Below, piece by piece: positions 1,039 through 44,275 of a stretch of 64,000 bases of DNA. The notes under the pieces were generated by a model. The model saw only the letters and a program-made list of their open reading frames with translations, made no database searches and was not told where the DNA came from. The first letter of the stretch is position 1, and every line of letters starts with the position of its first letter. This DNA is from Naegleria gruberi (lineage: Eukaryota), in NCBI GenBank assembly GCA_000004985.1, contig GG738876.1. One strand, written 5' to 3'. A program made the translations under genes and the position numbers.

Positions 1039-1320
1039 ATGACTAACAAGTATAGCCTGCATAGTGACATGAAGATCTTTAGAACTCGTTTATTATTTGT
1101 TGGATGGGTGTTTGTCTTTCTATTCCCACCTGCTGTTCCTTGTCTATTGATGTATTATGAGAAGAGAAAGGTTGAGGCTGAGCACACTGAGACTGGAATT
1201 GGATGTTGTACGAATTATTATTTTGTTTGTGGAATGGTGGATGTTTGTACCATACTGTTGACAATACTAGGTTGGCTTCCTGGTTCAATATTCACAGCAG
1301 TACTATTATCTGGAATATAA
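1039..1320 (+). CDS. Pmp3/UPF0057 (YqaE/Rci2) family small membrane proteolipid with an unusually long inter-helix loop
   Basis: FLFPPAVPCL...ILLTILGWLPGSIFTAVLL matches the two-helix signature of the family (FLPPxxVFL...ILLTILGYIPGIIHA). A 93-aa ORF with about 25 extra loop residues containing a CC pair. Confidence 0.5.
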   Translation: MTNKYSLHSDMKIFRTRLLFVGWVFVFLFPPAVPCLLMYYEKRKVEAEHTETGIGCCTNYYFVCGMVDVCTILLTILGWLPGSIFTAVLLSGI

Positions 1321-1553
1321 TCATCTCCAACACAAAATTATACACTCACCCTATGAAAATAATTTGAAGAAAGAATAACAATTTTGAAGAGAATATTTAG
1401 AAAAGAAAATATTGCCATGGAGAACAATTCATAGCAATCATGAAAAAGTACCTTCCGATACCATTTGATCAAGTAATTAATTTGATAATAATAAATATCA
1501 TACGGCAATGATAATTTTAAAAATGATCAAGTATTGGAGATGAACTTAAAAAA

Positions 1554-2867
1554 ATGGAAAAGCAAGAAGAAATAGAAATTACAAACAATAACTTTGATTC
1601 GGAGGAGAGAATGGATCAACGAATGGATCAAGGGAAGGAAGGAATGGCTGATCATTATGGTTCTAGTGAAGATGAAGATACATTGTCTGATCAGTTGGTT
1701 GTTGAAGATGAAGAAGAATATGCTTATTATGATTGGGAAACGGTTGGATCTTCCTTACAAAATCAAGAAGAGGAACTAATTGATTTGTGGATGAGAATTA
1801 ATGATGCCTTTTCCGATAGGAAGAAATCCCTTGTCAACAAGTTTCAAGGAATTTCTAATAATTTGAAAAGAGAATTGGAAAATCAAAAGTTACAACTCAA
1901 ACAAAAGAAGGAAACATTAGTAAGGGAAATGAATCAGCCAGAGAATGTCAAGACCAAGGACAAGTATGCATTTACAATTGGTGTTTTGATTATGGTTTCT
2001 TCAACTTTCCTCTTGGCAAAATATCCCTACCTATTACCAGATTATTACATTGTAATGAGTGTAATTCTGATGGTGATTAGATTCTTTCACTATCATGGAA
2101 TGGGATTCCACTACTTTATGTTAGATTTTTGCTATTTGGCCAACTTTATCTTGATCTTTTATTTGGGATTTTATACAAACAGTCCTCACCTGTTTTTACT
2201 GAACTTTGTAAACAGCAGTGGACCTCTTGCAATTGCCATTGTAATGTGGAGAAATTCATTGGTATTTCATTCGATTGAAAAGGTAACTTCAGTCTTTATA
2301 CACATCTTCCCAGCCATTGTAACATTTGCGTTGAGGTGGTTAATGTTTAATGACAACACTCAAACACCAAAAATTATAACACCAATTGGGGAGAGCTACT
2401 CTATTTGTGTCAATGAAGATTGTTATGTATCATTGGTTGACATTTACGTACCTCACATTTGCTTATTCATATTTTGGCAATTAAGCTATACAATCAAGAC
2501 ACATTTCCTTGACAGAGAATATCTACAAAAACAAAATAATATTCAAACCAGCTACAATTACCTTATCAAGTCTAAAGCGTTCATTCAAACATTGAGTGAC
2601 AAGTTGTATGGAAAGGAACATAGACTTTTAGGATTCATTTCTTTACAATTTTTATTTCATATGTGTACTTTGATTCCTATAAAATTTATGTTTGACCATT
2701 TTTGGGTTCATGTGGCTGTGTTGACAAGTGTATTCTTGGTTTCTGTTTGGAATGGAGCCAACTTTTACTTTGAGAGATTTGCAAAGGTTTATCTTCATGA
2801 CTTGAGAAAGATGGCAGAAAAATTGGAGATGGAAAACAAAGAACAAACTTCAGCAATCACTCAATGA
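1554..2867 (+). CDS. polytopic membrane protein, DUF2838/Gpc1 (glycerophosphocholine acyltransferase)-like
   Basis: 437-aa ORF from ATG 1554. Acidic N-terminus, then about 8 hydrophobic helices, with an HYHGMGFHYFMLDFCY motif that I recall as typical of DUF2838. Assignment is from memory of the family signature. Confidence 0.4.
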   Translation: MEKQEEIEITNNNFDSEERMDQRMDQGKEGMADHYGSSEDEDTLSDQLVVEDEEEYAYYDWETVGSSLQNQEEELIDLWMRINDAFSDRKKSLVNKFQGISNNLKRELENQKLQLKQKKETLVREMNQPENVKTKDKYAFTIGVLIMVSSTFLLAKYPYLLPDYYIVMSVILMVIRFFHYHGMGFHYFMLDFCYLANFILIFYLGFYTNSPHLFLLNFVNSSGPLAIAIVMWRNSLVFHSIEKVTSVFIHIFPAIVTFALRWLMFNDNTQTPKIITPIGESYSICVNEDCYVSLVDIYVPHICLFIFWQLSYTIKTHFLDREYLQKQNNIQTSYNYLIKSKAFIQTLSDKLYGKEHRLLGFISLQFLFHMCTLIPIKFMFDHFWVHVAVLTSVFLVSVWNGANFYFERFAKVYLHDLRKMAEKLEMENKEQTSAITQ

Positions 2868-13854: not shown

Positions 13855-15183
13855 ATGAATCATCTTAAACGATTGATTGTTTTGGCTCTTGTAGTTGTAC
13901 TCATGTTTGTCGTCTCACTTTCACATGCTCAAGACGAACAACAGGAAAACAACAATAAGAGACCACCAAGACCTTTACCTTCAGGTAGACCACCAAGACC
14001 ACATCCAGATCATTCTGGAGGGCGACCACCTCGCCCATTCCCATCTGGAGGAAGACCACCACGTCCAGATCATTCAGGAAGAAGACCAAGACCAGATCAT
14101 TCTGGTGAGAGACCACATCCACCAGGTCCACAACCAGATCATTCAGGAAGAAGACCACCAAGACCTGGTCCACATCCTGGTCAATCAGGATTACCACCAC
14201 GTTCTGATGAACAAGATGGTCAAAGTGAAAATAGACCTCGTCCACCAAGACCTCATCCAGAACGTTCAGGTGAAAGACCACATCCAAGACCTTTCCCATC
14301 TGGAGGTAGACCACCAAGACCAGACCACTCAGGAAGAAGACCAGGTCCACATCCAGATCATTCTGGAAGACCACCTCGTCCACATCCAAGACCAGAACCA
14401 TCTTCTGAAGATGACGAACACTCTGATAGACTTGAACAAGGAAACAGACCTCGTCCACCAAGACCAGATCGTTCAGGTTTGCCACCTCGTCCATTCCCAT
14501 CTGGAGGAAGACCACCAAGACCAGATCATTCAGGAAGAAGACCACATCCAAGACCTGAACACTCTGGTGAGAGACCACATCCAAGACCAGCTCACTCTGG
14601 TGAAAGACCACCAAGACCAGATCATTCAGGAAGAAGACCAAGACCAGGTCCACAACCAGACCAATCGGGAAGACCACCTCGTCCTTATCCAGAACATTCT
14701 GGTGAAAGACCAGGCCCACGTCCTCAACCACAAGAATCAACTTCATCCTTAATAGGTGAAAGACCACCAAGACCTGATAGATCTGGAAGACCACCTCGTC
14801 CATTCCCATCTGGAGGCAGACCACCAAGACCAGGCCCATCTGGAGGAAGACCAGGTCCTGGACCAGGTCCACAACCTGATGTTTCATCTGTTGAAGATCC
14901 ACTCATTGATGCTCAAAATAATACCAAGAATGAAATTCCAAATGGACCATCCAATGGTTCTGATGCTTTGGCCATTGTCTTTGGTGTTATTGGTGCAATT
15001 GTTGTCATGGCTGCTATTGCTCTTGTCATTGGAAGTGGAATTGCTGTTTTTGTTTTGAAGAAGAAGGGTTATTCACTCTCATTGAAGAAACATCAAATGT
15101 TGAGAGATGAAGACGAATTTGAATATCCACAACAAGACCAAACTCCAATTTACTCTGTCAATCAACCAGTTGCTCAAAATTAG
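13855..15183 (+). CDS. type I membrane protein with a Pro/Arg-rich tandem-repeat ectodomain (GRPPRPDHSGRRP-type units)
   Basis: Signal peptide MNHLKRLIVLALVVVLMFVVSLSHA, then more than 20 imperfect repeats of RPPRPxPxHSG(E/R)RP. Near the C-terminus is a TM (LAIVFGVIGAIVVMAAIALVIGSGIAVFVL) followed by KKKGY and a roughly 40-aa tail. Confidence 0.6.
   Translation: MNHLKRLIVLALVVVLMFVVSLSHAQDEQQENNNKRPPRPLPSGRPPRPHPDHSGGRPPRPFPSGGRPPRPDHSGRRPRPDHSGERPHPPGPQPDHSGRRPPRPGPHPGQSGLPPRSDEQDGQSENRPRPPRPHPERSGERPHPRPFPSGGRPPRPDHSGRRPGPHPDHSGRPPRPHPRPEPSSEDDEHSDRLEQGNRPRPPRPDRSGLPPRPFPSGGRPPRPDHSGRRPHPRPEHSGERPHPRPAHSGERPPRPDHSGRRPRPGPQPDQSGRPPRPYPEHSGERPGPRPQPQESTSSLIGERPPRPDRSGRPPRPFPSGGRPPRPGPSGGRPGPGPGPQPDVSSVEDPLIDAQNNTKNEIPNGPSNGSDALAIVFGVIGAIVVMAAIALVIGSGIAVFVLKKKGYSLSLKKHQMLRDEDEFEYPQQDQTPIYSVNQPVAQN
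13960..14880 (+). repeat. about 39-nt imperfect tandem coding repeats (Pro/Arg-rich) within the 13855..15183 gene
   Basis: Recurring ggaagaccaccaagaccagatcattcaggaagaagacca units. They produce the artefactual track ORFs 13895..14752(+) and 13901..14902(-). Confidence 0.6.
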
Positions 15184-28520: not shown

Positions 28521-29047
28521 TGTGATTGGTAAAGGATTGAATATTCTTGATCTCTGTTTCAATTTTCGTTCAAACTTGCACCTCATCTCCCATTTTCCTT
28601 GAAATTCAATTGTTCGGAGATGAGTGGGAGTTATTAATTGAAAATTCCGCAGTAGTAAGCACAATCTGTTCACAAGTCCATTACTTCTCCTCATGAAATC
28701 ATCAATTAATATTGAAAATTATTTGGATGTAGATATTGCAATTTCCTTCGTGTTCTCCATCTTTATTTCTCTGTGCATTATCAAAAACTACACACAGGTG
28801 CGCCCAATGATTGATCAATATTGAACCTTTTTTCATTCCTCCCACACGTGTGTGCTCCCTATCAATCATTAAGAGCATCAACATGATCCATTCAACAAAT
28901 GCAAGAGAGGCTCTCTTGAAAATTTTGGCGCGCAACTAAAATCTATGTGATTGTGTATTTGAGACTGATGGGAAGATGCTTTGAAAAAATATCTTTTTAA
29001 AATAATTTTAAATAAATTATTGTTGAAGAAAATTGATTCTAGAAAAA

Positions 29048-32017
29048 ATGTCTTCGTACGGAACGCACGGCGATGGTGGAGATGGGTTGGAATCGAGTAA
29101 ACAACTCAATGTGCTCCAAAAGATTGCTAGAAATAGAGTGGTGAATATTGTTGGTGCGATAATATTATCAATTATTTTATTATTGAGTATTGGATGTTGT
29201 GTTGTTGTTGGTGTGCTTCATTCACATTTGCTTTTCCAATGTGGATTTGCTGAATTTATATTTATGTTACTTCTTGAAGGCGCTACATTCTTCTTCTGTA
29301 TTTATCACTTGTACAATATTTACAAGTTTTTCAAGACTAGAGCACGACACTCTGGTAAGAAGGGAATTTCCGCTATTGTTGCTGCTTTATGTTCATCAGA
29401 AGTAAATCAATACAATGCATATTCTGATTCCAGACAAGGAAATGAAGAAGATGATTTTGATGATGAAGAAGATGATGAAGATGACGAAGAAGAGGAGGAA
29501 GAAGAAAGCAAATTTTCCAAGTTTGTTGTCGGCTTTTTGAAGATTGCTGCCAATGCTATTGCTGTTTTATGTTTCATCATTTTGGTACTTTTCACAGTTG
29601 TTGTCGTTCCATTGCAACAACAAACCTACCCAACTTATAACGGTACTCTTAAACTTCCAAAGTTTACACCAAAGGGATCTTCTGCTCCTACAATTTCACG
29701 TGAAAGTAATGGTGTTGTTCACATCAAGGCTTCACACGATTATGATTTATATTTCGCACAAGGTGTAGCTGTTGCTCAAGATCGTTTGTGGCAATTGGAA
29801 TTTAATCGTAGATTGTCAAATGGTATTTTGGCTGAAGTTGCTGGTGCTGATGCTGTCAATGTTGACAGTTGGTTCAGAACTCTCGGATTTGCTCGTTCTG
29901 CTGCCAACATTTTACCAACCATTGATGCTGAAACTCTTTCATTCATTCAAGCATATTGTGATGGTATTAACTCTTATATTAATAGTAATCCACCACTTCA
30001 ACCTGAATTTGTTCTCCTCAACACTAAACCAGTTGAATGGACTCCAAGTGATGTTATTGCTTATATGAAGTTTGTTTCATTCTCTCTTTCTGATAATATG
30101 GAAAAGGAAGTTTGGAGATTCAAGATGATGCAAAGAAATATCACAAAGGACAGAGTTAACGAATTGGTTCCTTTCTACCCAACTGATATGCCAACTATTT
30201 TGAGTTTGGAAGAAATGAATTTGCAAAACGTTCCAGTTGAAGAAAGAGAAAAGATTGAAAAGGCTCAACAAGATGATTCTGCTGCTTTTATTCCAAAGGC
30301 TATTCACAATTTGACCATGTCTGTCATGGAAGAAATGTTCGCTTCATTGGAAGAATCTGGTGAATGGGGTAAACAAGCTGTCAGATCAGTTTTGAAGGGT
30401 ATGGTTGCTCCAGATATCACTGGTAACAAGGCCTCAAACAATTGGGTTCTCGGAACCAAGATTACAGCAAACAATGGATCATTGTTGGCTAACGATCCTC
30501 ATTTGGATTTGACTGCTCCAGGTATTTGGTATTTGGCTCATTTGGAAGGTCCAACTCACAATGTTATTGGTTCTACTTTTGTTGGTCTTCCAGGTATTGT
30601 TATTGGTAAGAATGATTTCATTTCATGGGGTGTTACTACTGGTCTTGTTGATGCTCAAGATTTGTACGTCATGTCCGAAGTTGAAGAAGGTAAAACTTAC
30701 AACTACAATGGTAAAGTTCTCCAATATGAAACTCGTACCGAAACTATTAATGTTAAGGGAGCTGCTGCCAAGACTATTACTGTTAAGGAATCTGTCTACG
30801 GTCCAGTTATTAATGACCACTACCAAGTTGATGGTAACGTTTTGTGTTTGAAGTCTTTGACTACCTACACTAATGATACCACACTCCAAGCTTTCCTCAA
30901 GTTGAACAGAGAAGCTAAGGATTGGAACTCATTTGTTGATGTTGTCTCCTTGTTCGTTTCCCCATCCCAAAACTTTGTCTTTGCTGACAAGAGTGGTAAC
31001 ATTGGTTACTATTTGGCTGGTTTGGTTCCAATTAGAAAGGAAGGTCACAATGGTAGATTCCCAGTTATTGGTGATGGTAGCTATGATTGGCAAGGATTTA
31101 TTCCAGCTGCTGAAAAGCCAAGCGTTTACAATCCAAAGAAGGATTACATTGCTTCTGCAAACAACAGAGTTACTCCTGTTGGTTACAAGTACAGTATTAC
31201 CCAAGATTGGTACTCTTTCTATAGAGCTAGCAGAATTGTCTCATTGATTGAAACTGCTATTGAAAAGGGAACTCCACTCAATTTTGAATACATGAAGAAG
31301 ATGCAACACGACGTTCACTCACCAGTCTTTGATCAATTCAAGTTTGTTTTTGAAGCTATTCCAAAGTTCAGAAATCTCACTGAAAATAAGGAAAAGTTGA
31401 GAGAAAAGTTGATTAATTGGGACGGTGATGAAATTTTGTACTCTCAATCTGCTTCCATCTTTGAAATGTGGTACAAGATTATGGGTAACCTCACCAAGGT
31501 TGAAACTGTCAATAGATGGTCTTTCGGTCCATATCTTTACAATGCCTTGAAGAATGGTGATAGTGCTTGTGAAAATTATCACAACACTACTTGTATGTTG
31601 TTCGCTATTGACAGCTTTGAAAATGCCATTGATGCTCTTGAAGCCACTTACGGTTCTATTCCATTGTGGGGTTCTGATATTCACGAATCTGAATTCCCTA
31701 ACCCGGTAATGGATAATACTGTTCTCAAATGTTTGGCTGGAGCTACTCGTACTACTGTTGGTGGTTCTTCAACCATTAATGTTGGTGAAACTCAATATCC
31801 TGCCCTCAATTCAAGATGGGGTGTTTCTTATAGACAAGTTGTTGATTGGCGAGGCAATCAAGCTTCATTCATCATTCCACTCGGTCAATCTGGTAACTTC
31901 TTATCTCCTCTTTACACCAACTTGTTAGAAATGTGGTCTGACCCAACTGGTCAATACTTGGACATGAAATCTGCTGGTTACACTGCAACCAATACCCTTT
32001 CTCTTTCCTCTCAATAA
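29048..32017 (+). CDS. penicillin amidase / N-acyl-homoserine-lactone acylase family Ntn-hydrolase with an N-terminal 3-TM anchor and an acidic (D/E) loop
   Basis: Family motifs ...GNKASNNWVLGTKITANNGSLLANDPHLDLTAPGIWY (Ser nucleophile at the start of the beta-subunit, SNxW) and downstream segments conserved with PvdQ/PGA. The N-terminus has three hydrophobic helices flanking EEDDFDDEEDDEDDEEEEEEE. 990 aa, single exon. The true ATG is at 29048. Confidence 0.8.
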   Translation: MSSYGTHGDGGDGLESSKQLNVLQKIARNRVVNIVGAIILSIILLLSIGCCVVVGVLHSHLLFQCGFAEFIFMLLLEGATFFFCIYHLYNIYKFFKTRARHSGKKGISAIVAALCSSEVNQYNAYSDSRQGNEEDDFDDEEDDEDDEEEEEEESKFSKFVVGFLKIAANAIAVLCFIILVLFTVVVVPLQQQTYPTYNGTLKLPKFTPKGSSAPTISRESNGVVHIKASHDYDLYFAQGVAVAQDRLWQLEFNRRLSNGILAEVAGADAVNVDSWFRTLGFARSAANILPTIDAETLSFIQAYCDGINSYINSNPPLQPEFVLLNTKPVEWTPSDVIAYMKFVSFSLSDNMEKEVWRFKMMQRNITKDRVNELVPFYPTDMPTILSLEEMNLQNVPVEEREKIEKAQQDDSAAFIPKAIHNLTMSVMEEMFASLEESGEWGKQAVRSVLKGMVAPDITGNKASNNWVLGTKITANNGSLLANDPHLDLTAPGIWYLAHLEGPTHNVIGSTFVGLPGIVIGKNDFISWGVTTGLVDAQDLYVMSEVEEGKTYNYNGKVLQYETRTETINVKGAAAKTITVKESVYGPVINDHYQVDGNVLCLKSLTTYTNDTTLQAFLKLNREAKDWNSFVDVVSLFVSPSQNFVFADKSGNIGYYLAGLVPIRKEGHNGRFPVIGDGSYDWQGFIPAAEKPSVYNPKKDYIASANNRVTPVGYKYSITQDWYSFYRASRIVSLIETAIEKGTPLNFEYMKKMQHDVHSPVFDQFKFVFEAIPKFRNLTENKEKLREKLINWDGDEILYSQSASIFEMWYKIMGNLTKVETVNRWSFGPYLYNALKNGDSACENYHNTTCMLFAIDSFENAIDALEATYGSIPLWGSDIHESEFPNPVMDNTVLKCLAGATRTTVGGSSTINVGETQYPALNSRWGVSYRQVVDWRGNQASFIIPLGQSGNFLSPLYTNLLEMWSDPTGQYLDMKSAGYTATNTLSLSSQ
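29441..29506 (+). repeat. GAA/GAT (Glu/Asp) trinucleotide-rich coding microsatellite within the acylase gene
   Basis: gaagaagatgattttgatgatgaagaagatgatgaagatgacgaagaagaggaggaagaagaa. It also yields a poly-Ser antisense ORF (29407..29595) in the track. Confidence 0.6.
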
Positions 32018-33613: not shown

Positions 33614-35056
33614 TTATTGAGAATTTTGATGTTTCATAACCAAACCATGAATCTTTTTAACTCTCATTTCCTTGAGGAATTCCATCGAAAGTTTGAACCT
33701 GTAATGAGAATCCAACATTACAATTTCAATTTCCTTCTCCAAGAAATCAAACAAATCGTCTGGAAGCGACGAAATTTGACGATTCTTATACAATTCAATT
33801 TGAAACAAAACATCATGTGTGGACTTCTTATCAATATTTACAGATTTAGGGCCATTAACATTCAGGAATTCTTCATATATTTCCTGAGCTAATTGGAATT
33901 TCTTTGCTTCAACAACTTCTAATTCAGTTTCGAGTTCTTGAGTAGTTGAAAGATTTTTCTTTCTCTTGGTTGTTGGTTGACCAACACTGAGAGAAGTATT
34001 GGATTTGGAAGACTGATCAACAACAGAGATGGTGGAAGGAGTTGCGTTATTGGAAACTTCAGATAATTCGAAAGAAACGCTACCTAAACTATTAGAACTT
34101 TCAGTTTCTTCACTCAATGTTTGAACCAATTCAATTTGATATTCACACAATCGCTTGTACTGCTGAACTTTTTCAAGGAATTCAAAGTTTTCAGAGTTAA
34201 ATTCCTTCTTACAATGATTCTTAAAGAGATTTCTCAATCTGTCATTATTCATGGTGTGTGAAATGTCAACTGCTAGTGCTTCTCTTAATTTTTGAACATT
34301 GTTGGAGTCTGATCTAATAGCCAACCCAAAAACAAAGATAATGACTGGAACTGTAACTACAACTGCCAAGCAAATAATTGATAATGAAGTTATGGACATA
34401 GCATTAGTGATTTTTGACACTTGTTCTTGAGAAGCAAGTACATAATCAAGTACAACATCTTGTGCAGTTCTAAAAGTGTTTCTTCTTGCGATATAAGTGG
34501 CGGAAGTAAGCAATCGAACAGCTTCCGTAAAGTTTCCATCTCTAATATTCGAAACAGCTTGAGAATCAGTATCAGTCAAATAATTAACAATTCCCTGCAA
34601 ATTATTTCTATACTGCTGCGAAATACTCTGAGGTATCTTTTGAAGCATATTTTCAGTCAACTCATCATTCACTTTCGAATAATTATTATAATAAGCCAAA
34701 TATCCCTCATTTCCCGAATAGGCAGCCACCAACGTATAAGCTTGAATATAGGCAGTATACGTAGATACCTTCGCTCTAGTAGCCAACAAATCAATATCCT
34801 CATTCATCTGACTATTTTCACTATAAATCAGCAAACCAAGGAGAATGAGGAAAGTAATGGTATTGAGGACCATGGCAACCATTGCAAAGATTTTAATGAA
34901 ATTCAATTCGAGTTTGAAGAAACAGCAGTGGACTGTGAAGGTTTTTGGCTGTTTTTGATGTTTACGAAAGGAATCGTCGAGAGAGGATTGCTGGCGTTTG
35001 AGAGGAGGTGAAGATTCAATGCTTGTTTCGATTGGTTTCTTTGTTTCGTTTTCCAT
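33614..35056 (-). CDS. membrane-anchored RGS (regulator of G-protein signalling) domain protein, 2 TM helices plus a C-terminal RGS domain
   Basis: The C-terminal half contains FKNHCKKEFNSENFEFLEKVQQYKRL...AQEIYEEFLNVNGPKSVNID...FQIELY...VMLDSHYRFKLSMEF, which matches the RGS box. The N-terminal part has two TM helices (FAMVAMVLNTITFLILLGLLIY and SLSIICLAVVVTVPVIIFVFGLAI) flanking a roughly 150-aa loop. Single 480-aa ORF. Confidence 0.75.
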   Translation of the reverse strand: MENETKKPIETSIESSPPLKRQQSSLDDSFRKHQKQPKTFTVHCCFFKLELNFIKIFAMVAMVLNTITFLILLGLLIYSENSQMNEDIDLLATRAKVSTYTAYIQAYTLVAAYSGNEGYLAYYNNYSKVNDELTENMLQKIPQSISQQYRNNLQGIVNYLTDTDSQAVSNIRDGNFTEAVRLLTSATYIARRNTFRTAQDVVLDYVLASQEQVSKITNAMSITSLSIICLAVVVTVPVIIFVFGLAIRSDSNNVQKLREALAVDISHTMNNDRLRNLFKNHCKKEFNSENFEFLEKVQQYKRLCEYQIELVQTLSEETESSNSLGSVSFELSEVSNNATPSTISVVDQSSKSNTSLSVGQPTTKRKKNLSTTQELETELEVVEAKKFQLAQEIYEEFLNVNGPKSVNIDKKSTHDVLFQIELYKNRQISSLPDDLFDFLEKEIEIVMLDSHYRFKLSMEFLKEMRVKKIHGLVMKHQNSQ

Positions 35057-35980: not shown

Positions 35981-36970
35981 ATGCAAAATCATACTTCACA
36001 AGTACAGGGTGATTCTTTCTCATTGCCACCTTCTTCATCACCACCACCACCACCACAAGAAGTCTCTACACAACAGCAAACATCGTACTATTCATGGAGT
36101 CCAACTAGTCTTTCAGAAGCTGCCAAACAACAGCAAACAGAGTATTACAGTGGAGGTTCTCCAAGCTATTCACCAACTTCACCGAGCTATTCACCAACTA
36201 CACCCGTCTATGCTCCAACTTCACCAGCATATTCACCAACTTATACTCCAACCTCTCCTTGTTATTCTTATACCTCTCCATATTATAGTACGATTTTTTA
36301 TCTTCCGAGAGAGACAGTGCTGAGTTTTGATTTGGATCAAAGTGTATTGGAAAGGATTGAGAAGGAAACAAGAAATTGGGGAGTGTTGAGGTGGAGAAAT
36401 CCAGAGTTGGGTGAAAGATTTTGGGGACATGTTTATATGAGTGTTGATTCAAAGATTGTGGAAATTATTAGAGAACATTATGGACCGAAGGGATTAATTA
36501 CTAAAGTTAGGGAATTGTTGGGAGAGGTAGGAGAATCGCACTCTACGGTTGAGTATAATGCATTCTTGTTGCCAACACATTTTACTGTAATTGGGAGTAA
36601 GGAGTGGCAACAGGCATTCTTGGGATTGGAGAAGGAGGTTGAGTATTTTACAGTTAAAAATCCTGCAGAAAATGTATTCGAAAGTTCAATTGAGTTTGTG
36701 AATAGTCCATATAAGAGTTATTCAAAATTGTTTAAGGAAGAGAAAATTCAGGAATTGTGCAATTTTACCTATTTTACAAGATCTGGATTTGCAAATTCAC
36801 TTCCCAACGAAATTGTATCCCACATTAAACAATTTCTAATCATTGATCTGAAAGAAAGTGGACGAAAGGTTAAATTCTCAATCACTGGCCAAATTAGTTT
36901 AGTTCCAAGACAGTTTGGAGAAAAGCTTGGTTTCATTCTCCATGTCGATTGTCCAGAAATGAATAATTGA
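35981..36970 (+). CDS. hypothetical protein with an N-terminal poly-Pro tract and about six RNA polymerase II CTD-like heptads (YSPTSPS-type), plus an unassigned C-terminal domain
   Basis: ATG 35981 follows a 10-nt A-run. Residues about 47-100 read [47 protein letters not shown]. The remaining roughly 230 aa have no recognised motif. Confidence 0.5.
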
Positions 36971-37238
36971 GAGAGAATACGGATTCCAAAGTATGGACTA
37001 TTCCATTCCTTTAGGACTTGATTGGCGTGATTACAAGTATCCTCAATTACCAAAAAAGGTAGTTATTAAGAATTTTTCAAAGAAGAGAACTCGTGACACA
37101 TTTGAAGAATGCAATATTAAATAAAATCTAAAAGCTTTTTAATAATCCATTTTGGTGGAAAACAAAGCAGTATTATTGGAAACTATTTAGAATATTGATG
37201 ATAAATAACACTTGAATAGCAATTTGTAATATTTGAGT

Positions 37239-38905
37239 TTATTCGAAATTTAGATCATCATAACATTCCACAAATTCATCAGAATACCAAAGTGCTCTGA
37301 GAAGAATCTTTCTTGGAAGATTCATCATTTCAGCTTCTTTCAACATTTCCTCAACAATTTGATTCAATTCCAATAGAAATTCTCCCATTCTGTCATAGAG
37401 TGAAGAATTGACTGATAACTCCTCAAGATGATTGGATGCTCTGTTCCAAGCAACTACAGCCTTGTTGAATAATTCATCTTCTTCTCCTACTAAACTGGAA
37501 TAGGTCTGAATAACTTCACTATATTTGTCAAGAACTGATCTTTTGGCCAACTTGAAACTTCCTTTTCTGTTGATGGAATCAATTAATTGGACCAGTTTAG
37601 TTCTGTTTTGTTGAGAATGTTCTGCTGGAGAGTTCAAAACACATTCACAATAATCAATCATAAGTTGGTCAACTGGAAATTCTGGAAGTGGATGCTCTAC
37701 AAAATTGTTGATTTGTTTGTAAACTTGATTTTGTAAAGTGATGAGGGAATAATCTTTTGGAAATAGCTCTTCACTCAAGTCATTTAACATGATGAAATTC
37801 TTTCTCTTCTTTCTACTACTTTCGAATGGTTTAAAAGAAACCTTTGCATTTGGAAAGAGTAATCTAAATGCAAAAGAAATGCTTCCACACACGAAAGGAT
37901 GAGATTCAGGAGAGTGAATCAAATTAATCTGATTAATCTTGGATGGAATCTCCTGCAATGCATATTTAGCAATGTGAAATAATTTGAAACAACTTTCAGA
38001 AATGGTCAACTCTTCACAATTTGGAAACATTTTAGCAATTTGCTTCATTCTAACCCCTTGTCCTTGAAATCAAAATCAAAGTCACCAACTGACAATTTCT
38101 TGACACTTGGCAGTATCTTGTCAACTGAACCAAGGTAATCAACTTTCAAGGTACATGGATTGGAATGTACATGTTCAATAGATGGTACACTGATACTTTC
38201 CATATTTTTGGCACAAGGTGGTACTTTGAAATTTTGTTTTTGGTTGAGGAATTTGACATTTCTGAGATTTCCAATACTTGCTTGAACTAATTTACAATCT
38301 TCTTCAGAAATTGGAGAGTTAAAGACGAGTTTTCTATATTGGGATGATTTCATATCCAAGAATTGAACGATCGAATTGAATGGATTGTGTTCTCTTTGGT
38401 AAACATTCTTAAATGAGATGGATGATAAGGTTGGGGTAATTCTGACAGGTTGTCTCTTTGGCAGTTGACTTGTGTCACATTGGCTATTGCTGAAATGCAA
38501 TTTTCTTAAATTGCAATCATGTGGATTGAGAATGGAGAGTAAAATTCTTGGATTAATTTCACATCCTTCAAATTCGAGTTCTGTAAAACGATTGATAAGT
38601 GACACATGCTTTTCCTTCAGCTGATCAACACCTGACAGTATCAGCTTGGCATCCATTGCAAATTTCTTCAATCCCAAATAATTTCCAACACATTCAATAT
38701 CTTTAACTGTACAACAAGTCAATTCTTCCCTTTCTCTCAACATTTTCCTAATATAGGATTGTTGAGAAGTAATTCCATCACATGCTCGATGACACAAACC
38801 AACCATTCTTCTCAACATGATCAAAATTGCATCATTTGGAATGAAACTCAATATTTGACATGCAATTTCTGGAACGAATAGAATAGAATAATTAATAGAA
38901 TGCAT
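37239..38905 (-). CDS. F-box/LRR-like protein interrupted by a frameshift or assembly error (track ORFs 38045..38905 and 37239..38048 overlap at ATGA)
   Basis: N-terminal ORF: VPEIACQILSFIPNDAILIMLRRMVGLCHRACD (F-box-like) plus Leu-rich repeats. Its TGA stop overlaps the ATG of the next ORF (MKQIAKMFPNCEELTISESCFKL..., also Leu-rich). There is no room for an intron between them. Confidence 0.4.
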
Positions 38906-41991: not shown

Positions 41992-43323
41992 CTATTGGTA
42001 TGTCTCATCAATTGGTGAAATGCATGTTTCATGTTTCTTCCCAAACAAAAAACCAATTGTTTCAAAGACAGTCGCAAGAGTAACAGGTGCAAATGTGAAA
42101 TAAGAACAATGACCACAACCAAGTATTGCCAAACTGACACCTAAAGCAAAACGAGACAGTCCAAAAAAACCTACTTTAAGTTTCTCCTTAATATATAGGG
42201 CATTCACTTCCCAACTATCGGCCAATAGTGTGACTGCTATTGGAAGAGCACTCAAACATCCACCTCCCAATTTATAACACGACACTCCCAAGAATAGGGA
42301 TATTATATAATTTGATAGTAAGCTTTGGATAGTAACTGTTGGTGGCACAATCATTTTGAAAATCTTTTTCAACTCACTGATGCTTACAACTCCCAAATAA
42401 ATCCAAATTGGGAAGGAAAGATAATAATTGATCGTATTTACAAGTATATGGGAATAGCTCATCTCAATTCCAAGTATACTATACAGTAATGACTTTACAG
42501 AATACATTCCATATCCATTAAATAGTAGAATGAGTCCAGCAAATACAGGTATTGCCAAATTGGCAACGAATAAATTGACATCCTTATGAAATTTAGTGGT
42601 AAATCTATGAATATTCAATTTTCTCAATATTCCAATCCCTCTTAATAGTGAAAATGCTGTAAATCCACACCAAACACCTCCCAATAGAGTTTGCACGACG
42701 GCAAAGCAATACGGAATCCACCAAAACACTCCATTCCAATCTTTTTCACCAACCTGGTTACTGGAATACTGTCCAACACAAACCTGAGCAGCAATACTCA
42801 TCAATGTGAGTATCACACCAAACAGTACAGTTGGATCTCTCTTTGCCACACGTGCAATCAGCTCCTGAACTTTTCTATCAAAAGCAGAAAATTTAACATC
42901 CATTCTAGCAAAATAAAAAGCATTCACCAATTTCTCCTTTGAATTCAGTGCCATTCTACATTCCTCTCTCTTCTCCTCCTCACTTTTAATTTGCCTCTCT
43001 ATTATGGTGGCAGTGGAGGAGGAGGCGGTCCAGTAATCTCTCACCAAATCATAGATGGTTCCAAATGGTCGTTTTATCAATTTTTCAAATAAGAAACCCC
43101 TTCTCAAGTATTCACTTGTTTCAATCTTGATCATCTCGAATAGATTTATCGATTGATCATCATTTGTACTACTATTACTTGTATTGGAGAGAGAATTTTC
43201 AACAAGTTTTTCAAATCTCCGACAAGTATGAGATAATATGATTAAATCTCTTGGATTCCGAGAGGTAAAATTCAATATGGTGAGGAGCATTTCATCAGGC
43301 AATTCGAGTAGTGGTTGCTTCAT
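41992..43323 (-). CDS. F-box domain fused to a polytopic (about 8-9 TM) membrane domain
   Basis: The N-terminal LELPDEMLLTILNFTSRNPRDLIILSHTCRRFEKL is an F-box. From residue about 170 onward there are multiple hydrophobic helices (VLFGVILTLMSIAAQV, VFWWIPYCFAVVQTLLGGVW, LFVANLAIPVFAGLILLF, ...). 443 aa, single ORF from ATG 43323. Confidence 0.55.
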   Translation of the reverse strand: MKQPLLELPDEMLLTILNFTSRNPRDLIILSHTCRRFEKLVENSLSNTSNSSTNDDQSINLFEMIKIETSEYLRRGFLFEKLIKRPFGTIYDLVRDYWTASSSTATIIERQIKSEEEKREECRMALNSKEKLVNAFYFARMDVKFSAFDRKVQELIARVAKRDPTVLFGVILTLMSIAAQVCVGQYSSNQVGEKDWNGVFWWIPYCFAVVQTLLGGVWCGFTAFSLLRGIGILRKLNIHRFTTKFHKDVNLFVANLAIPVFAGLILLFNGYGMYSVKSLLYSILGIEMSYSHILVNTINYYLSFPIWIYLGVVSISELKKIFKMIVPPTVTIQSLLSNYIISLFLGVSCYKLGGGCLSALPIAVTLLADSWEVNALYIKEKLKVGFFGLSRFALGVSLAILGCGHCSYFTFAPVTLATVFETIGFLFGKKHETCISPIDETYQ

Positions 43324-43444: not shown

Positions 43445-44275
43445 ATGGCCACACGTTCCGTGATGAAAATATTCATGAAGAGTTATATGCAATTTGCAAA
43501 TCGATACTATGTACCTTTCATGTTCAGGTTTGCATTGAAAAAGGCTTTGAAATTTGATCCGAATGTGATGAGTGGTCGACAATTATTGAAAGATATCAAG
43601 GATGAACAGGATATTTTGCTCCGATCACAAACTACAAGGAGTTTCATGGAGAAGGAAGCTCGTGAGAGGAATATGACTGATGATAGTTGGTTGCCTTTGG
43701 TTTGTCAATATATTGCATCGAATAAGGTGTTGGCTAGGGGGTTATTTGAAGGTGATGAAGCAAAAGCCATGTTGTATATTAATGATAGAGCTATTTCACC
43801 TCCTGTGGAAAGAATGATGCAATTGGTTTTGGGAAAAAAGAATCAGAAAGGTTTACTAGGTGGAATGTTATTTAGAAAGGATGAACAGAATGAAAATTCG
43901 GATGTTTTGGGAAATATGTGGACATTGATGTGTGTTACAAATGAAATGTTGCAATGTTGGATATTATCTCACGAAATTTATAATGAAATTTCTGAGCAGG
44001 ATGGTCATGTACATAGGGTATCTTCAATTAAGGTTCACGACTGTATGCTCAATAGATTTTTCAGAGAGCATGAGGCAACTCATTTGATGCCAGTAATTTG
44101 CTCTTTTGACTCTGTGTGGGCTAGGAATGCTTTTGAGAATACTGGATACAAATACAGAAGAAATCAAACACTCAGCTTGGGAGGAAATCATTGTGCGTTT
44201 GATTTTTCGAAAGGTTTCGAAGAGAATGAGAAGGATGTAGTATTGGATGAATTGGAAAAAATAAGAAAACAATAA
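43445..44275 (+). CDS. hypothetical protein with an HExxH motif (REHEATHL), possible small zinc-metallopeptidase-like protein
   Basis: 276-aa ORF from ATG 43445, after a 13-nt A-run. HEATH is followed 30-40 aa later by conserved acidic/His residues (GGNHCAFDFSKGFEENE). Not assignable to a specific peptidase family by eye. Confidence 0.3.
   Translation: MATRSVMKIFMKSYMQFANRYYVPFMFRFALKKALKFDPNVMSGRQLLKDIKDEQDILLRSQTTRSFMEKEARERNMTDDSWLPLVCQYIASNKVLARGLFEGDEAKAMLYINDRAISPPVERMMQLVLGKKNQKGLLGGMLFRKDEQNENSDVLGNMWTLMCVTNEMLQCWILSHEIYNEISEQDGHVHRVSSIKVHDCMLNRFFREHEATHLMPVICSFDSVWARNAFENTGYKYRRNQTLSLGGNHCAFDFSKGFEENEKDVVLDELEKIRKQ

What the first reader, a model, noticed from the sequence alone, without database searches (positions are those of the whole stretch)
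36119..36290. RNA polymerase II CTD-like YSPTSPS heptad array in a non-polymerase protein
About six consecutive heptads ([42 protein letters not shown]) closely match the Rpb1 CTD consensus. They lie near the N-terminus of a 329-aa protein whose remaining domain is unassigned. Rpb1 carries its CTD at the C-terminus, so this is not an Rpb1 fragment. It could be a CTD mimic or decoy for CTD kinases, phosphatases or binding proteins, or a fragment captured from RPB1.
Basis: seen in the sequence. Interest (0 to 1): 0.65.

Follow-up and report, generated by a model that had tools for sequence, protein, structure and literature searches.

The report
Polymerase-tail-like repeats on Naegleria enzyme
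A small protein family found only in Naegleria-type amoebae carries, at its front end, copies of the seven-residue repeat that normally forms the tail of RNA polymerase II, joined to a domain that looks like an RNA-end-trimming (2H phosphoesterase) enzyme; the repeats are real and old, but what they do is untested.

Summary
Window 36146-36289 (+) encodes Y56-S103 of a 329-aa Naegleria gruberi "predicted protein". It contains four in-register YSPTSPS-type heptads, a 4-residue partial unit and two more heptads. No shuffle reproduces this, and it is the only such array in the window.

It is neither an RPB1 fragment nor an assembly chimera. The same N-terminal heptads sit directly before the same domain in a N. 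gruberi paralog, in N. lovaniensis, N. fowleri and Willaertia magna, and in uncultured relatives. Copy number ranges from 0 to 8. The family consensus is Y-S-P-T-S/T-P-x. In this copy the array grew in place by 21-nt and 57-nt duplications, and the units have since diverged.

The window copy has a frameshift at 36965-36977. It cuts off a conserved C-terminal segment that carries a KKRTR patch.

A role as a CTD-like docking or phosphorylation tail is plausible but untested. Neutral low-complexity expansion is a serious rival. Interest is moderate.

The parts
35981..36970 (+). Annotated single-exon ORF, 329 aa (N. gruberi 'predicted protein', P0001). It is truncated by a frameshift relative to its family.
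   Evidence: (100% identity)
35981..36145 (+). S/P/Q-rich leader, aa 1-55. It contains a PPPPP tract ((CAC)6 at 36039-36056) and a diverged 57-nt tandem duplication: 36058-36090 and 36115-36147, 76% identical, encoding [13 protein letters not shown] and [13 protein letters not shown].
36146..36289 (+). CTD-like heptad array, Y56-S103: four in-register heptads, a partial unit YSPT, two further heptads, then YYS.
36290..36967 (+). Conserved globular domain, aa 104-329, probably a divergent 2H-phosphoesterase-like fold. The last helix and strand are missing from this frame.
36422..36436 (+). WGH150VY, a conserved His-bearing strand of the N-terminal beta-alpha-beta-beta unit. W and G are invariant in the family; the His is replaced by N only in Willaertia P0079.
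36569..36592 (+). LPTH200FTVI, a canonical H-x-T/S-x motif. P, H, V and I are invariant in the family. It aligns to the motif-1 region of Pfam 2H-SAK (profile positions 24-50 in P0079).
36935..36952 (+). ILH321VDC, the second His strand. Family consensus is L-H-[VI]-x-[SC], which is not the canonical H-x-T/S-x. It aligns to the motif-2 region of Pfam 2H-SAK (about profile position 93).
36965..36977 (+). Frameshift site at AATTGAGAGAGAA, which includes a short GA run. There are 13 nt where the paralog has 5 codons. The annotated frame ends at TGA 36968-36970.
36978..37124 (+). Out-of-frame continuation, YGFQSMDYSIPLG...KNFSKKRTRDTFEECNIK*. It is homologous to the conserved C-terminus of every full-length family member and includes the basic patch KKRTR at 37080-37094.
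   Evidence: (58% identity to the P0002 tail, E 4e-16)

Best explanation
Anatomy (read from sequence). The locus encodes one member of a small protein family restricted to heterolobosean amoebae: Naegleria gruberi (two copies), N. lovaniensis, N. fowleri, Willaertia magna and uncultured relatives. The family plan has three parts:
1. A disordered N-terminal tail of CTD-type heptads, consensus Y-S-P-T-S/T-P-x, in 0 to 8 copies.
2. A globular domain of about 240 aa with a probable 2H-phosphoesterase fold related to Pfam 2H-SAK. It has three conserved His-bearing strands, one of them a canonical H-x-T-x motif.
3. A C-terminal tail with a basic K/R patch.

Origin of the array (read from sequence). 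In this N. gruberi copy the tail was lengthened in place, by duplication of 21-nt heptad units and of a 57-nt unit. The copies have since diverged. It is not a piece of RPB1.

Mechanism (inferred, not shown).
- The globular domain would bind or process RNA or nucleotide phosphodiester ends, as 2H enzymes do. Known 2H substrates include 2',3'-cyclic phosphates, 2'-5' linkages and cyclic nucleotides.
- The heptad tail would act as a proline-directed phosphorylation and docking platform of the same chemical type as the Pol II CTD.
- That tail would let the enzyme be bound by CTD-reading modules, or join CTD-type assemblies, in the nucleus.

Status of this copy. It carries a frameshift that removes the last structural elements and the basic tail. 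It is therefore either a very recently disabled paralog or the site of an assembly error.
For: Array real and non-random.

Organism and paralog.

Family membership. The exhaustive HMMER search with the domain alone found only 7 relatives plus one spurious repeat protein among 1.84 billion representatives. All named ones are Naegleria or Willaertia.

Heptads in the same place. Of 10 loci where the N-terminus can be read, 9 have heptads directly before the domain. L001 and L002 share one 5' sequence.

Family heptad consensus from 18 exact 7-spaced units:
- S2 in 10 of 18
- P3 in 17 of 18
- T4 in 10 of 18
- S/T5 in 18 of 18
- P6 in 17 of 18
- position 7 variable

In-place growth. There are diverged 21-nt copies and a 57-nt duplication. 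The paralog aligns to the first two heptads only.

Disorder. AF2 pLDDT is below 50 for nearly all of residues 1-32 of the paralog.

2H assignment:
- Pfam PF22547 2H-SAK matches 5 of 9 members. The best is P0078 at 30.4 bits against a cut-off of 27, E 5e-7.
- The partial matches are colinear: the motif-1 region in P0079 and the motif-2 region in P0002, P0077, P0078 and P0083.

Basic C-terminal patch. It is KKRTR, KKRK or KRLKR in most full-length members.

Precedent for a CTD-like motif on an RNA-processing enzyme. The Trf4 NIM binds the Nrd1 CID in competition with the CTD (PMC4186968).

Against: Weak support in this protein itself. The window protein gets no Pfam hit.

Active site not canonical. 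Only one of the His motifs is H-x-T/S-x. The second is H-V-D-C here, so catalytic competence is uncertain.

Heptad number is poorly constrained: about 1 in N. fowleri, 2 in the paralog, 0 in Willaertia P0079, and 7-8 in an environmental relative. That pattern fits slippage-driven low complexity as well as function.

Three loci are disrupted: the window frameshift, an in-frame TGA in L001, and a premature TAA plus a further stop in L002.

Nothing tested. There is no evidence here for phosphorylation, nuclear localisation or binding to CTD readers.

One paper states that the N. gruberi Rpb1 C-terminal extension lacks repeat structure (PMC3646058). If so, there may be no canonical host CTD to mimic.
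Confidence: 0.5

Rival explanations
1. Neutral low-complexity tail. The heptads are a slippage-prone S/P/T/Y-rich disordered leader that drifts in length and has no CTD-related role. The resemblance to YSPTSPS is convergent, because Y/S/P/T-rich 7-residue periodicities arise easily.
For: - Copy number ranges from 0 to 8 among relatives and differs between the sister species N. fowleri and N. lovaniensis.
- The 21-nt and 57-nt duplications show slippage-type growth.
- Many unrelated non-Rpb1 proteins in the databases carry similar arrays.
- Several family loci are disrupted.
Against: - At least one Y-S-P-T-S-P unit is kept at the same N-terminal position across Naegleria and Willaertia, although the domains are only about 25-35% identical.
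- P3, S/T5 and P6 are nearly invariant in 18 units.
- The units have diverged at synonymous sites while keeping the residue pattern.
Confidence: 0.33
2. The window copy is a pseudogene, or a mis-assembled gene, whatever the family does. The frameshift at 36965-36977 removes the last helix and strand of the domain and the basic tail.
For: - All other full-length members continue through EL..LR..YGF....F...G.
- The same sequence is present here, but in another frame: 58% identical to the paralog tail, E 4e-16.
- Two environmental relatives also carry stops.
Against: - The out-of-frame tail is 58% identical to the paralog's tail. This is somewhat below the 69% seen over the in-frame alignment, and it has kept the conserved motifs, so any inactivation would be very recent.
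- A 1-2 nt error at a short GA run in a draft assembly is equally possible.
- This explanation can hold together with either functional reading.
Confidence: 0.3
3. Recent capture of RPB1 CTD-coding DNA, or an assembly chimera containing a piece of RPB1.
For: Only the sequence resemblance to Rpb1 CTDs.
Against: - The heptads sit at the same position in the paralog and in orthologs in three other species.
- Adjacent units are only 57-81% identical at the nucleotide level.
- The frame runs continuously from the array into the domain.
- Composition across the locus is uniform.
- One paper reports no repeat structure in the N. gruberi Rpb1 extension.
Confidence: 0.02
4. Competitive decoy. The tail titrates CTD kinases, phosphatases or readers away from Pol II, and the globular domain is secondary.
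For: The array is CTD-type. Competition between a CTD-like motif and the CTD for one reader is documented for the Trf4 NIM.
Against: Most members have only 1-3 heptads, too few to compete with a full polymerase tail. The tail is always attached to the same conserved domain, which points to delivering that domain rather than to sequestration.
Confidence: 0.05

Closest known systems
RNA polymerase II Rpb1 C-terminal domain (Pfam PF05001 repeats)
   Same: It has tandem 7-residue units with the consensus Y-S-P-T-S-P-x. Y1, P3, S/T5 and P6 are kept and position 7 varies. It is disordered. phmmer aligns it to Rpb1 CTD fragments with E down to 2.6e-19.
   Different: It is N-terminal rather than C-terminal. 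There are 1-8 units rather than dozens. No Rpb1 catalytic domains are present. PF05001 itself gives no hit in the window protein and sub-threshold hits (19.1 and 16.9 bits against a cut-off of 20.3) in two relatives.
2H phosphoesterase superfamily, nearest Pfam model 2H-SAK (PF22547); structural neighbours Acb1, poxvirus cGAMP PDE, CNPase, LigT/ThpR, Usb1
Short CTD mimics on RNA-processing enzymes, e.g. the Nrd1-interaction motif (NIM) of yeast Trf4
   Same: A CTD-like peptide is attached to an RNA-metabolising enzyme. In the case of Trf4 it docks to a CTD-interaction domain in competition with the CTD (PMC4186968).
   Different: The NIM is a single acidic-plus-beta-turn motif (DDDEDGYNPYTL), not a heptad array. 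Binding of the Naegleria tail to any reader is untested.
Other non-Rpb1 proteins with PF05001-type arrays in sequence databases
   Same: CTD-type arrays are fused to unrelated domains: the PF00917 (MATH) domain of a Mytilus protein named USP7, PF13920, PF00651, PF11708 and PF00957. This shows that the motif recurs outside Rpb1.
   Different: They are unrelated proteins from unrelated organisms, most of them unannotated metagenome or draft-genome predictions. None has the 2H-like domain.

Membership tests
Rpb1 CTD (RNA polymerase II largest subunit) | Tandem heptads matching Y1-S2-P3-T4-S5-P6-S7 | tested here: met
   There is one perfect heptad and five at 5/7, four of them in register. None of 20,000 shuffles matched this. 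The family consensus is Y-S-P-T-S/T-P-x. However, the Pfam PF05001 model gives no hit at E<=1 in this protein.
Rpb1 CTD (RNA polymerase II largest subunit) | Array lies at the C-terminus of a protein with the Rpb1 catalytic domains | tested here: not met
   The array is at aa 56-103 of a 329-aa protein. Pfam finds no RNA_pol_Rpb1 domain. The rest of the protein belongs to a different family.
2H phosphoesterase superfamily / Pfam 2H-SAK (PF22547) | Profile match above the curated threshold | tested here: inconclusive
   The window protein has no hit. The paralog P0002 scores 13.5 bits. P0078 scores 30.4 bits against a cut-off of 27 (E 5e-7). P0083, P0079 and P0077 score 23.7, 17.8 and 16.4 bits. 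Membership of the window protein rests on its clear homology to those proteins.
2H phosphoesterase superfamily / Pfam 2H-SAK (PF22547) | Two H-x-T/S-x motifs on facing strands | tested here: inconclusive
   Motif 1 (H200-F-T-V) is canonical and invariant in the family. The His of motif 2 (H321) is conserved, but the motif reads H-V-D-C here and H-[VI]-x-S in relatives.
2H phosphoesterase superfamily / Pfam 2H-SAK (PF22547) | 2H fold (two pseudo-symmetric alpha+beta lobes) | tested here: inconclusive
2H phosphoesterase superfamily / Pfam 2H-SAK (PF22547) | Phosphodiesterase activity on 2',3'-cyclic phosphate, 2'-5' or cyclic-nucleotide substrates | not testable with these tools
   This needs a biochemical assay.
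CTD mimic or docking motif (Trf4 NIM type) | Direct binding to a CTD-interaction domain or other CTD reader, competing with the CTD | not testable with these tools
   Only the sequence resemblance is available. The precedent was read in PMC4186968.
F-box proteins (considered because of LPxEI..I..FL at 36800-36840) | Match to the F-box profiles PF00646 or PF12937 | tested here: not met
   No F-box hit at E<=1 in any of the 9 members. A true F-box in the same window (ORF 41992..43323) is detected at E 1.7e-6. hhalign paired this segment with the beta1-alpha1 start of LigT, but not significantly.

The most novel reading that the evidence does not exclude
The tail is a working 'portable CTD'. It would be phosphorylated by the CTD kinases and read by CTD-binding modules, and so would bring a 2H-type RNA-end-processing enzyme to the transcription and RNA-processing machinery of heteroloboseans. 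If the N. gruberi Rpb1 extension really lacks regular heptads (PMC3646058), the most canonical YSPTSPS repeats of this organism would sit on a non-polymerase protein. That would bear on how the CTD code arose and whether it can work apart from the polymerase.
Probability: 0.12. Interest if true: 0.75.

Novelty: new variant of a known kind. Interest (0 to 1): 0.45.

Why it matters
CTD heptads are normally treated as the private signalling platform of RNA polymerase II. This is a lineage-conserved case of the same heptad grammar on a different protein. That protein probably has an RNA- or nucleotide-phosphodiesterase fold, and the organism belongs to a deep-branching eukaryotic group.

If the tail is read by the CTD machinery, three things follow:
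- it would be a natural experiment on how few heptads suffice for recognition;
- it would link a 2H enzyme to co-transcriptional RNA processing;
- it would give a handle on CTD-code components in Naegleria, a genus that includes the pathogen N. fowleri.

If it is only drifting low complexity, it is a useful caution that YSPTSPS-like arrays arise and persist without polymerase function.

Tried and rejected
- No tool holds the Naegleria genome outside this window.
- Every hit of the word-index protein search was between about 0.6 and 1.7 times the query length. Full-length Rpb1 proteins therefore never appeared.
- Four literature searches yielded only one relevant statement. Yang & Stiller 2014 and Burroughs & Aravind 2016 are not held.

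2. Searches for relatives of the domain outside Heterolobosea found nothing credible.
- The exhaustive HMMER search gave only one spurious repeat protein, P0081.
- IMG/VR viral contigs gave none.
- JGI metagenome contigs gave none.
- PDB sequences gave none.
- NCBIfam gave nothing meaningful.
- PHROGs gave only phrog_12204, of unknown function: 4 members, best E 3e-4, over the same C-terminal region as 2H-SAK.
- A giant-virus origin therefore has no support.

3. Foldseek against the PDB gave no significant match. The afdb50 library was unavailable.

It is not evidence.

5. An F-box reading of [13 protein letters not shown] was rejected.

6. A selection test on the heptads using L001 versus L002 was rejected. 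The two contigs are 100% identical in DNA through the 5' flank and the whole array and diverge only afterwards. The identity therefore says nothing about constraint.

7. Genomic neighbourhood is uninformative. Different, unrelated neighbours flank the gene here and at two Willaertia loci.

8. The paralog's DNA could not be fetched.

Full report
**1. What is in the sequence**

The window is AT-rich (GC about 0.33) and densely packed with long intron-free ORFs. ORF 35981..36970 (+) encodes 329 aa. It is 100% identical to a 'predicted protein' of Naegleria gruberi, so the window is N. gruberi nuclear DNA.

Residues 56-103 (36146-36289) read: [48 protein letters not shown]. That is one perfect heptad and five that match YSPTSPS at 5 of 7 positions. 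Four heptads are in register, a 4-residue partial unit shifts the phase, and two more follow.

Evidence that this is not chance:
- TRF reports a 21-nt period with 3.8 copies at 80% match.
- The repeat finder reports seven 21-nt-spaced copies.
- None of 20,000 shuffles, even of the S/P/T/Y-rich 48-aa stretch itself, reached the observed count or the in-register chain.
- In all six frames of the 64 kb, 7 of the 9 heptads at 5/7 or better lie at this locus.
- phmmer aligns the array with Rpb1 CTD fragments at E down to 2.6e-19.

**2. The array is an old feature of a protein family, not a piece of RPB1**

I searched with the domain alone (aa 105-329) against 1.84 billion cluster representatives. 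It found only the N. gruberi paralog P0002, six more relatives and one spurious repeat protein. The named relatives are from N. lovaniensis and Willaertia magna. Further searches added a third Willaertia protein and the N. fowleri ortholog. The three unnamed relatives come from two ENA metagenome-assembly loci (L001 and L002) plus one separate ENA record, P0076.

The domains are only 25-35% identical between Naegleria and Willaertia. Even so, CTD-type heptads lie directly in front of the domain in nearly all members:

| Member | Heptads before the domain |
|---|---|
| Paralog P0002 | 2 (TPSYSPS SPAYAPS) |
| P0076 | about 4 |
| N. lovaniensis P0077 | about 3 |
| N. fowleri P0084 | about 1 (YSPTSPYY) |
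| Willaertia P0078 | 2 |
| Willaertia P0083 | 3 |
| Environmental loci L001 and L002 | 7-8 |
| Willaertia P0079 and its twin P0082 | none |

For L001, the full ORF 1105..1857 shows that the gene caller had started P0075 at an internal Met.

Over 18 exactly 7-spaced units the family consensus is Y-S-P-T-S/T-P-x. P3 and P6 are present in 17 of 18 units and S/T5 in 18 of 18. Position 7 is free.

The paralog aligns to the first two heptads of the window protein. The extra units here, and a 57-nt duplication just upstream (36058-36090 versus 36115-36147), are therefore local expansions. Adjacent 21-nt units are only 57-81% identical and use different synonymous codons, so the expansion is not recent.

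These facts exclude an assembly chimera and make recent capture from RPB1 very unlikely. The direct comparison with RPB1 could not be run.

**3. The 'unassigned' domain**

Pfam finds nothing in the window protein. Scanning all family members gives PF22547, '2H-SAK, Swiss Army Knife 2H phosphoesterase domain', in 5 of 9:

| Member | Bits (cut-off 27) |
|---|---|
| P0078 | 30.4 (E 5e-7) |
| P0083 | 23.7 |
| P0079 | 17.8 |
| P0077 | 16.4 |
| P0002 | 13.5 |

The partial matches are colinear:
- Profile positions 24-50 cover the invariant strand LP[ST]H[FIV][TS]VI. In the window this is LPTH200FTVI, 36569-36592, a canonical H-x-T/S-x motif.
- Profile positions 65-121 cover ...FLH[VI]x[SC]-EL..LR..YGF....F. 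In the window this is ILH321VDC, 36935-36952.

Two AF2 models were built from the shallow family alignment: P0002 (pLDDT 61, pTM 0.59) and the P0078 domain (pLDDT 67, pTM 0.64). Both have a confident beta-rich core and a low-confidence insertion of about 50 residues.

Foldseek against the PDB and a sequence profile against the PDB gave nothing.

I conclude that the domain is probably (about 0.7) a very divergent 2H-fold domain. It departs from the standard plan in four ways:
- an extra N-terminal beta-alpha-beta-beta unit carrying a third conserved His (WGH150VY, 36422-36436);
- about 60 extra residues between the two motifs;
- a non-canonical second motif;
- catalytic competence that is therefore open.

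The one paralog type without heptads (P0079) has also lost two of the three His residues.

**4. The window copy is frameshifted**

Every full-length relative continues after the second His strand with EL..LR..YGF....F...G and a tail containing a basic patch. In the window the annotated frame stops at PEMNN* (TGA 36968-36970). The homologous sequence continues in another frame: YGFQSMDYSIPLG...KNFSKKRTRDTFEECNIK*, 36978-37124. It is 58% identical to the paralog's tail, E 4e-16.

Thirteen nucleotides, AATTGAGAGAGAA, stand where the paralog has five codons. This is either a very recent inactivation or an error in the draft assembly.

Two environmental relatives are also interrupted. L001 has an in-frame TGA with homology continuing behind it. 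L002 has a premature TAA plus a further stop. The family may be undergoing birth-and-death evolution.

**5. How it most likely works**

Shown:
- the architecture of disordered CTD-type tail, conserved domain and basic C-terminal patch;
- its restriction to Heterolobosea;
- in-place expansion of the tail.

Inferred with moderate support: the 2H fold.

Inferred with weak support:
- the domain acts on RNA or nucleotide phosphodiester ends;
- the basic patch directs the protein to the nucleus;
- the S/T-P-rich, Tyr-containing tail is phosphorylated by proline-directed (CTD-type) kinases and serves as a docking or partitioning element for CTD readers.

A documented precedent for a CTD-like peptide on an RNA-processing enzyme is the NIM of Trf4. 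It binds the Nrd1 CID and competes with the CTD (PMC4186968).

The main rival is that the tail is drifting low complexity. The 0-to-8 variation in copy number and the difference between N. fowleri and N. lovaniensis fit that. The retention of at least one Y-S-P-T-S-P unit at the same place over long divergence argues against pure drift, as does the near-invariance of P3, S/T5 and P6.

A pure decoy role is unlikely with so few units, always tethered to the same domain.

**6. Comparison with what is known, and novelty**

The protein is not a member of the Rpb1 family. The heptad feature is met, but the defining context is not.

It is a probable but unproven, highly divergent member of the 2H superfamily.

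I found no description of this family, or of CTD-like heptads on a Naegleria non-polymerase protein, in the searchable literature.

CTD-type arrays outside Rpb1 are not unique. The same search turned up arrays fused to the PF00917 (MATH) domain of a protein named USP7, and to PF13920, PF00651, PF11708 and PF00957 domains, in other organisms. I therefore class this as a new variant of a known kind.

One paper states that the N. gruberi Rpb1 C-terminal extension 'lacks repeat structure' (PMC3646058). My recollection of a later survey (Yang & Stiller 2014, not held) is that it differs on this point. This needs checking, because it decides whether there is a canonical host CTD for the tail to resemble.

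**7. Verdict**

This is a real, conserved and previously undescribed feature with an attractive but untested functional reading, sitting in a copy that may be disabled. Interest is moderate (0.45).

The most novel reading still open is a functional 'portable CTD' on a 2H RNA-end enzyme. I give it about 0.12 probability and 0.75 interest if true.

Noticed in passing
window 36965-37124: The annotated 329-aa model ends at a frameshift in AATTGAGAGAGAA. The conserved C-terminal about 50 aa of the family, including KKRTR at 37080-37094, continue in another frame (ORF 36993..37124). This is either an assembly error or a very recent inactivation.
   Followed up: yes
L001 1105-1959 and L002 1000-1533 (ENA metagenome contigs): Two environmental relatives are 100% identical in DNA through the 5' flank and the whole 7-8-heptad array, then diverge by several percent. 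L001 has an in-frame TGA (1855-1857) with homology continuing behind it. L002 has a premature TAA and a further stop. The last 32 bases of L001 are Illumina adapter sequence.
   Followed up: partly
one search hits P0032, P0054, P0057, P0058, P0063, P0071 and others: Many non-Rpb1 proteins in public databases carry long PF05001-type YSPTSPS arrays fused to unrelated domains: PF00917 (MATH; named USP7), PF11708, PF00957, PF13920, PF00651 and a zinc-finger type. Some may be gene-model artefacts. I found no survey of them in the literature searches.
   Followed up: no
window 36773-36832; family alignment A5 columns about 185-215: The conserved segment F.YF[KT]RS.FA..LP.E[IL]...I..FL looks like an F-box helix but gets no F-box profile hit. 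It also resembles the beta1-alpha1 start of LigT-type 2H domains (LFFAIDLPAEIREQI), as does the start of the domain (ITFDLP..L). This hints at internal repetition of a 2H half-unit.
   Followed up: partly
window 37239-38905 (-): Two ORFs of 286 and 269 aa on the minus strand overlap by 4 nt (38045-38048). Neither has a significant Pfam match. They may be one gene split by a frameshift, or two tightly packed genes.
   Followed up: no
window 33614-35056 (-): The upstream neighbour encodes a 480-aa protein with an RGS domain (E 2e-8) whose matched stretch (aa 267-460) is interrupted by a long S/T-rich insertion. Its N-terminal part contains a hydrophobic stretch.
   Followed up: no
window 13855-15183: This is the GC-richest stretch of the window (0.41 against about 0.33). 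It has overlapping long ORFs on both strands (442, 285 and 333 aa) and no Pfam match, which suggests a low-complexity or repetitive coding region.
   Followed up: no
window 29033-32017 (+) and 43445-44275 (+): Two ORFs match enzyme families. One is a 994-aa penicillin-amidase family protein (E 9e-180). The other is an L-2-amino-thiazoline-4-carboxylic acid hydrolase-like protein (E 2e-10). From general knowledge both families are mostly bacterial, so they are possible lateral acquisitions.
   Followed up: no
C-terminal tails of P0076, P0077, P0078, P0084: Several family members also have a Y-S-P or Y-T-P motif in the C-terminal tail (RYSPC, CYSPYY, VYSPRY, SYSYTPSFTP). CTD-like elements may therefore flank the domain on both sides.
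   Followed up: no
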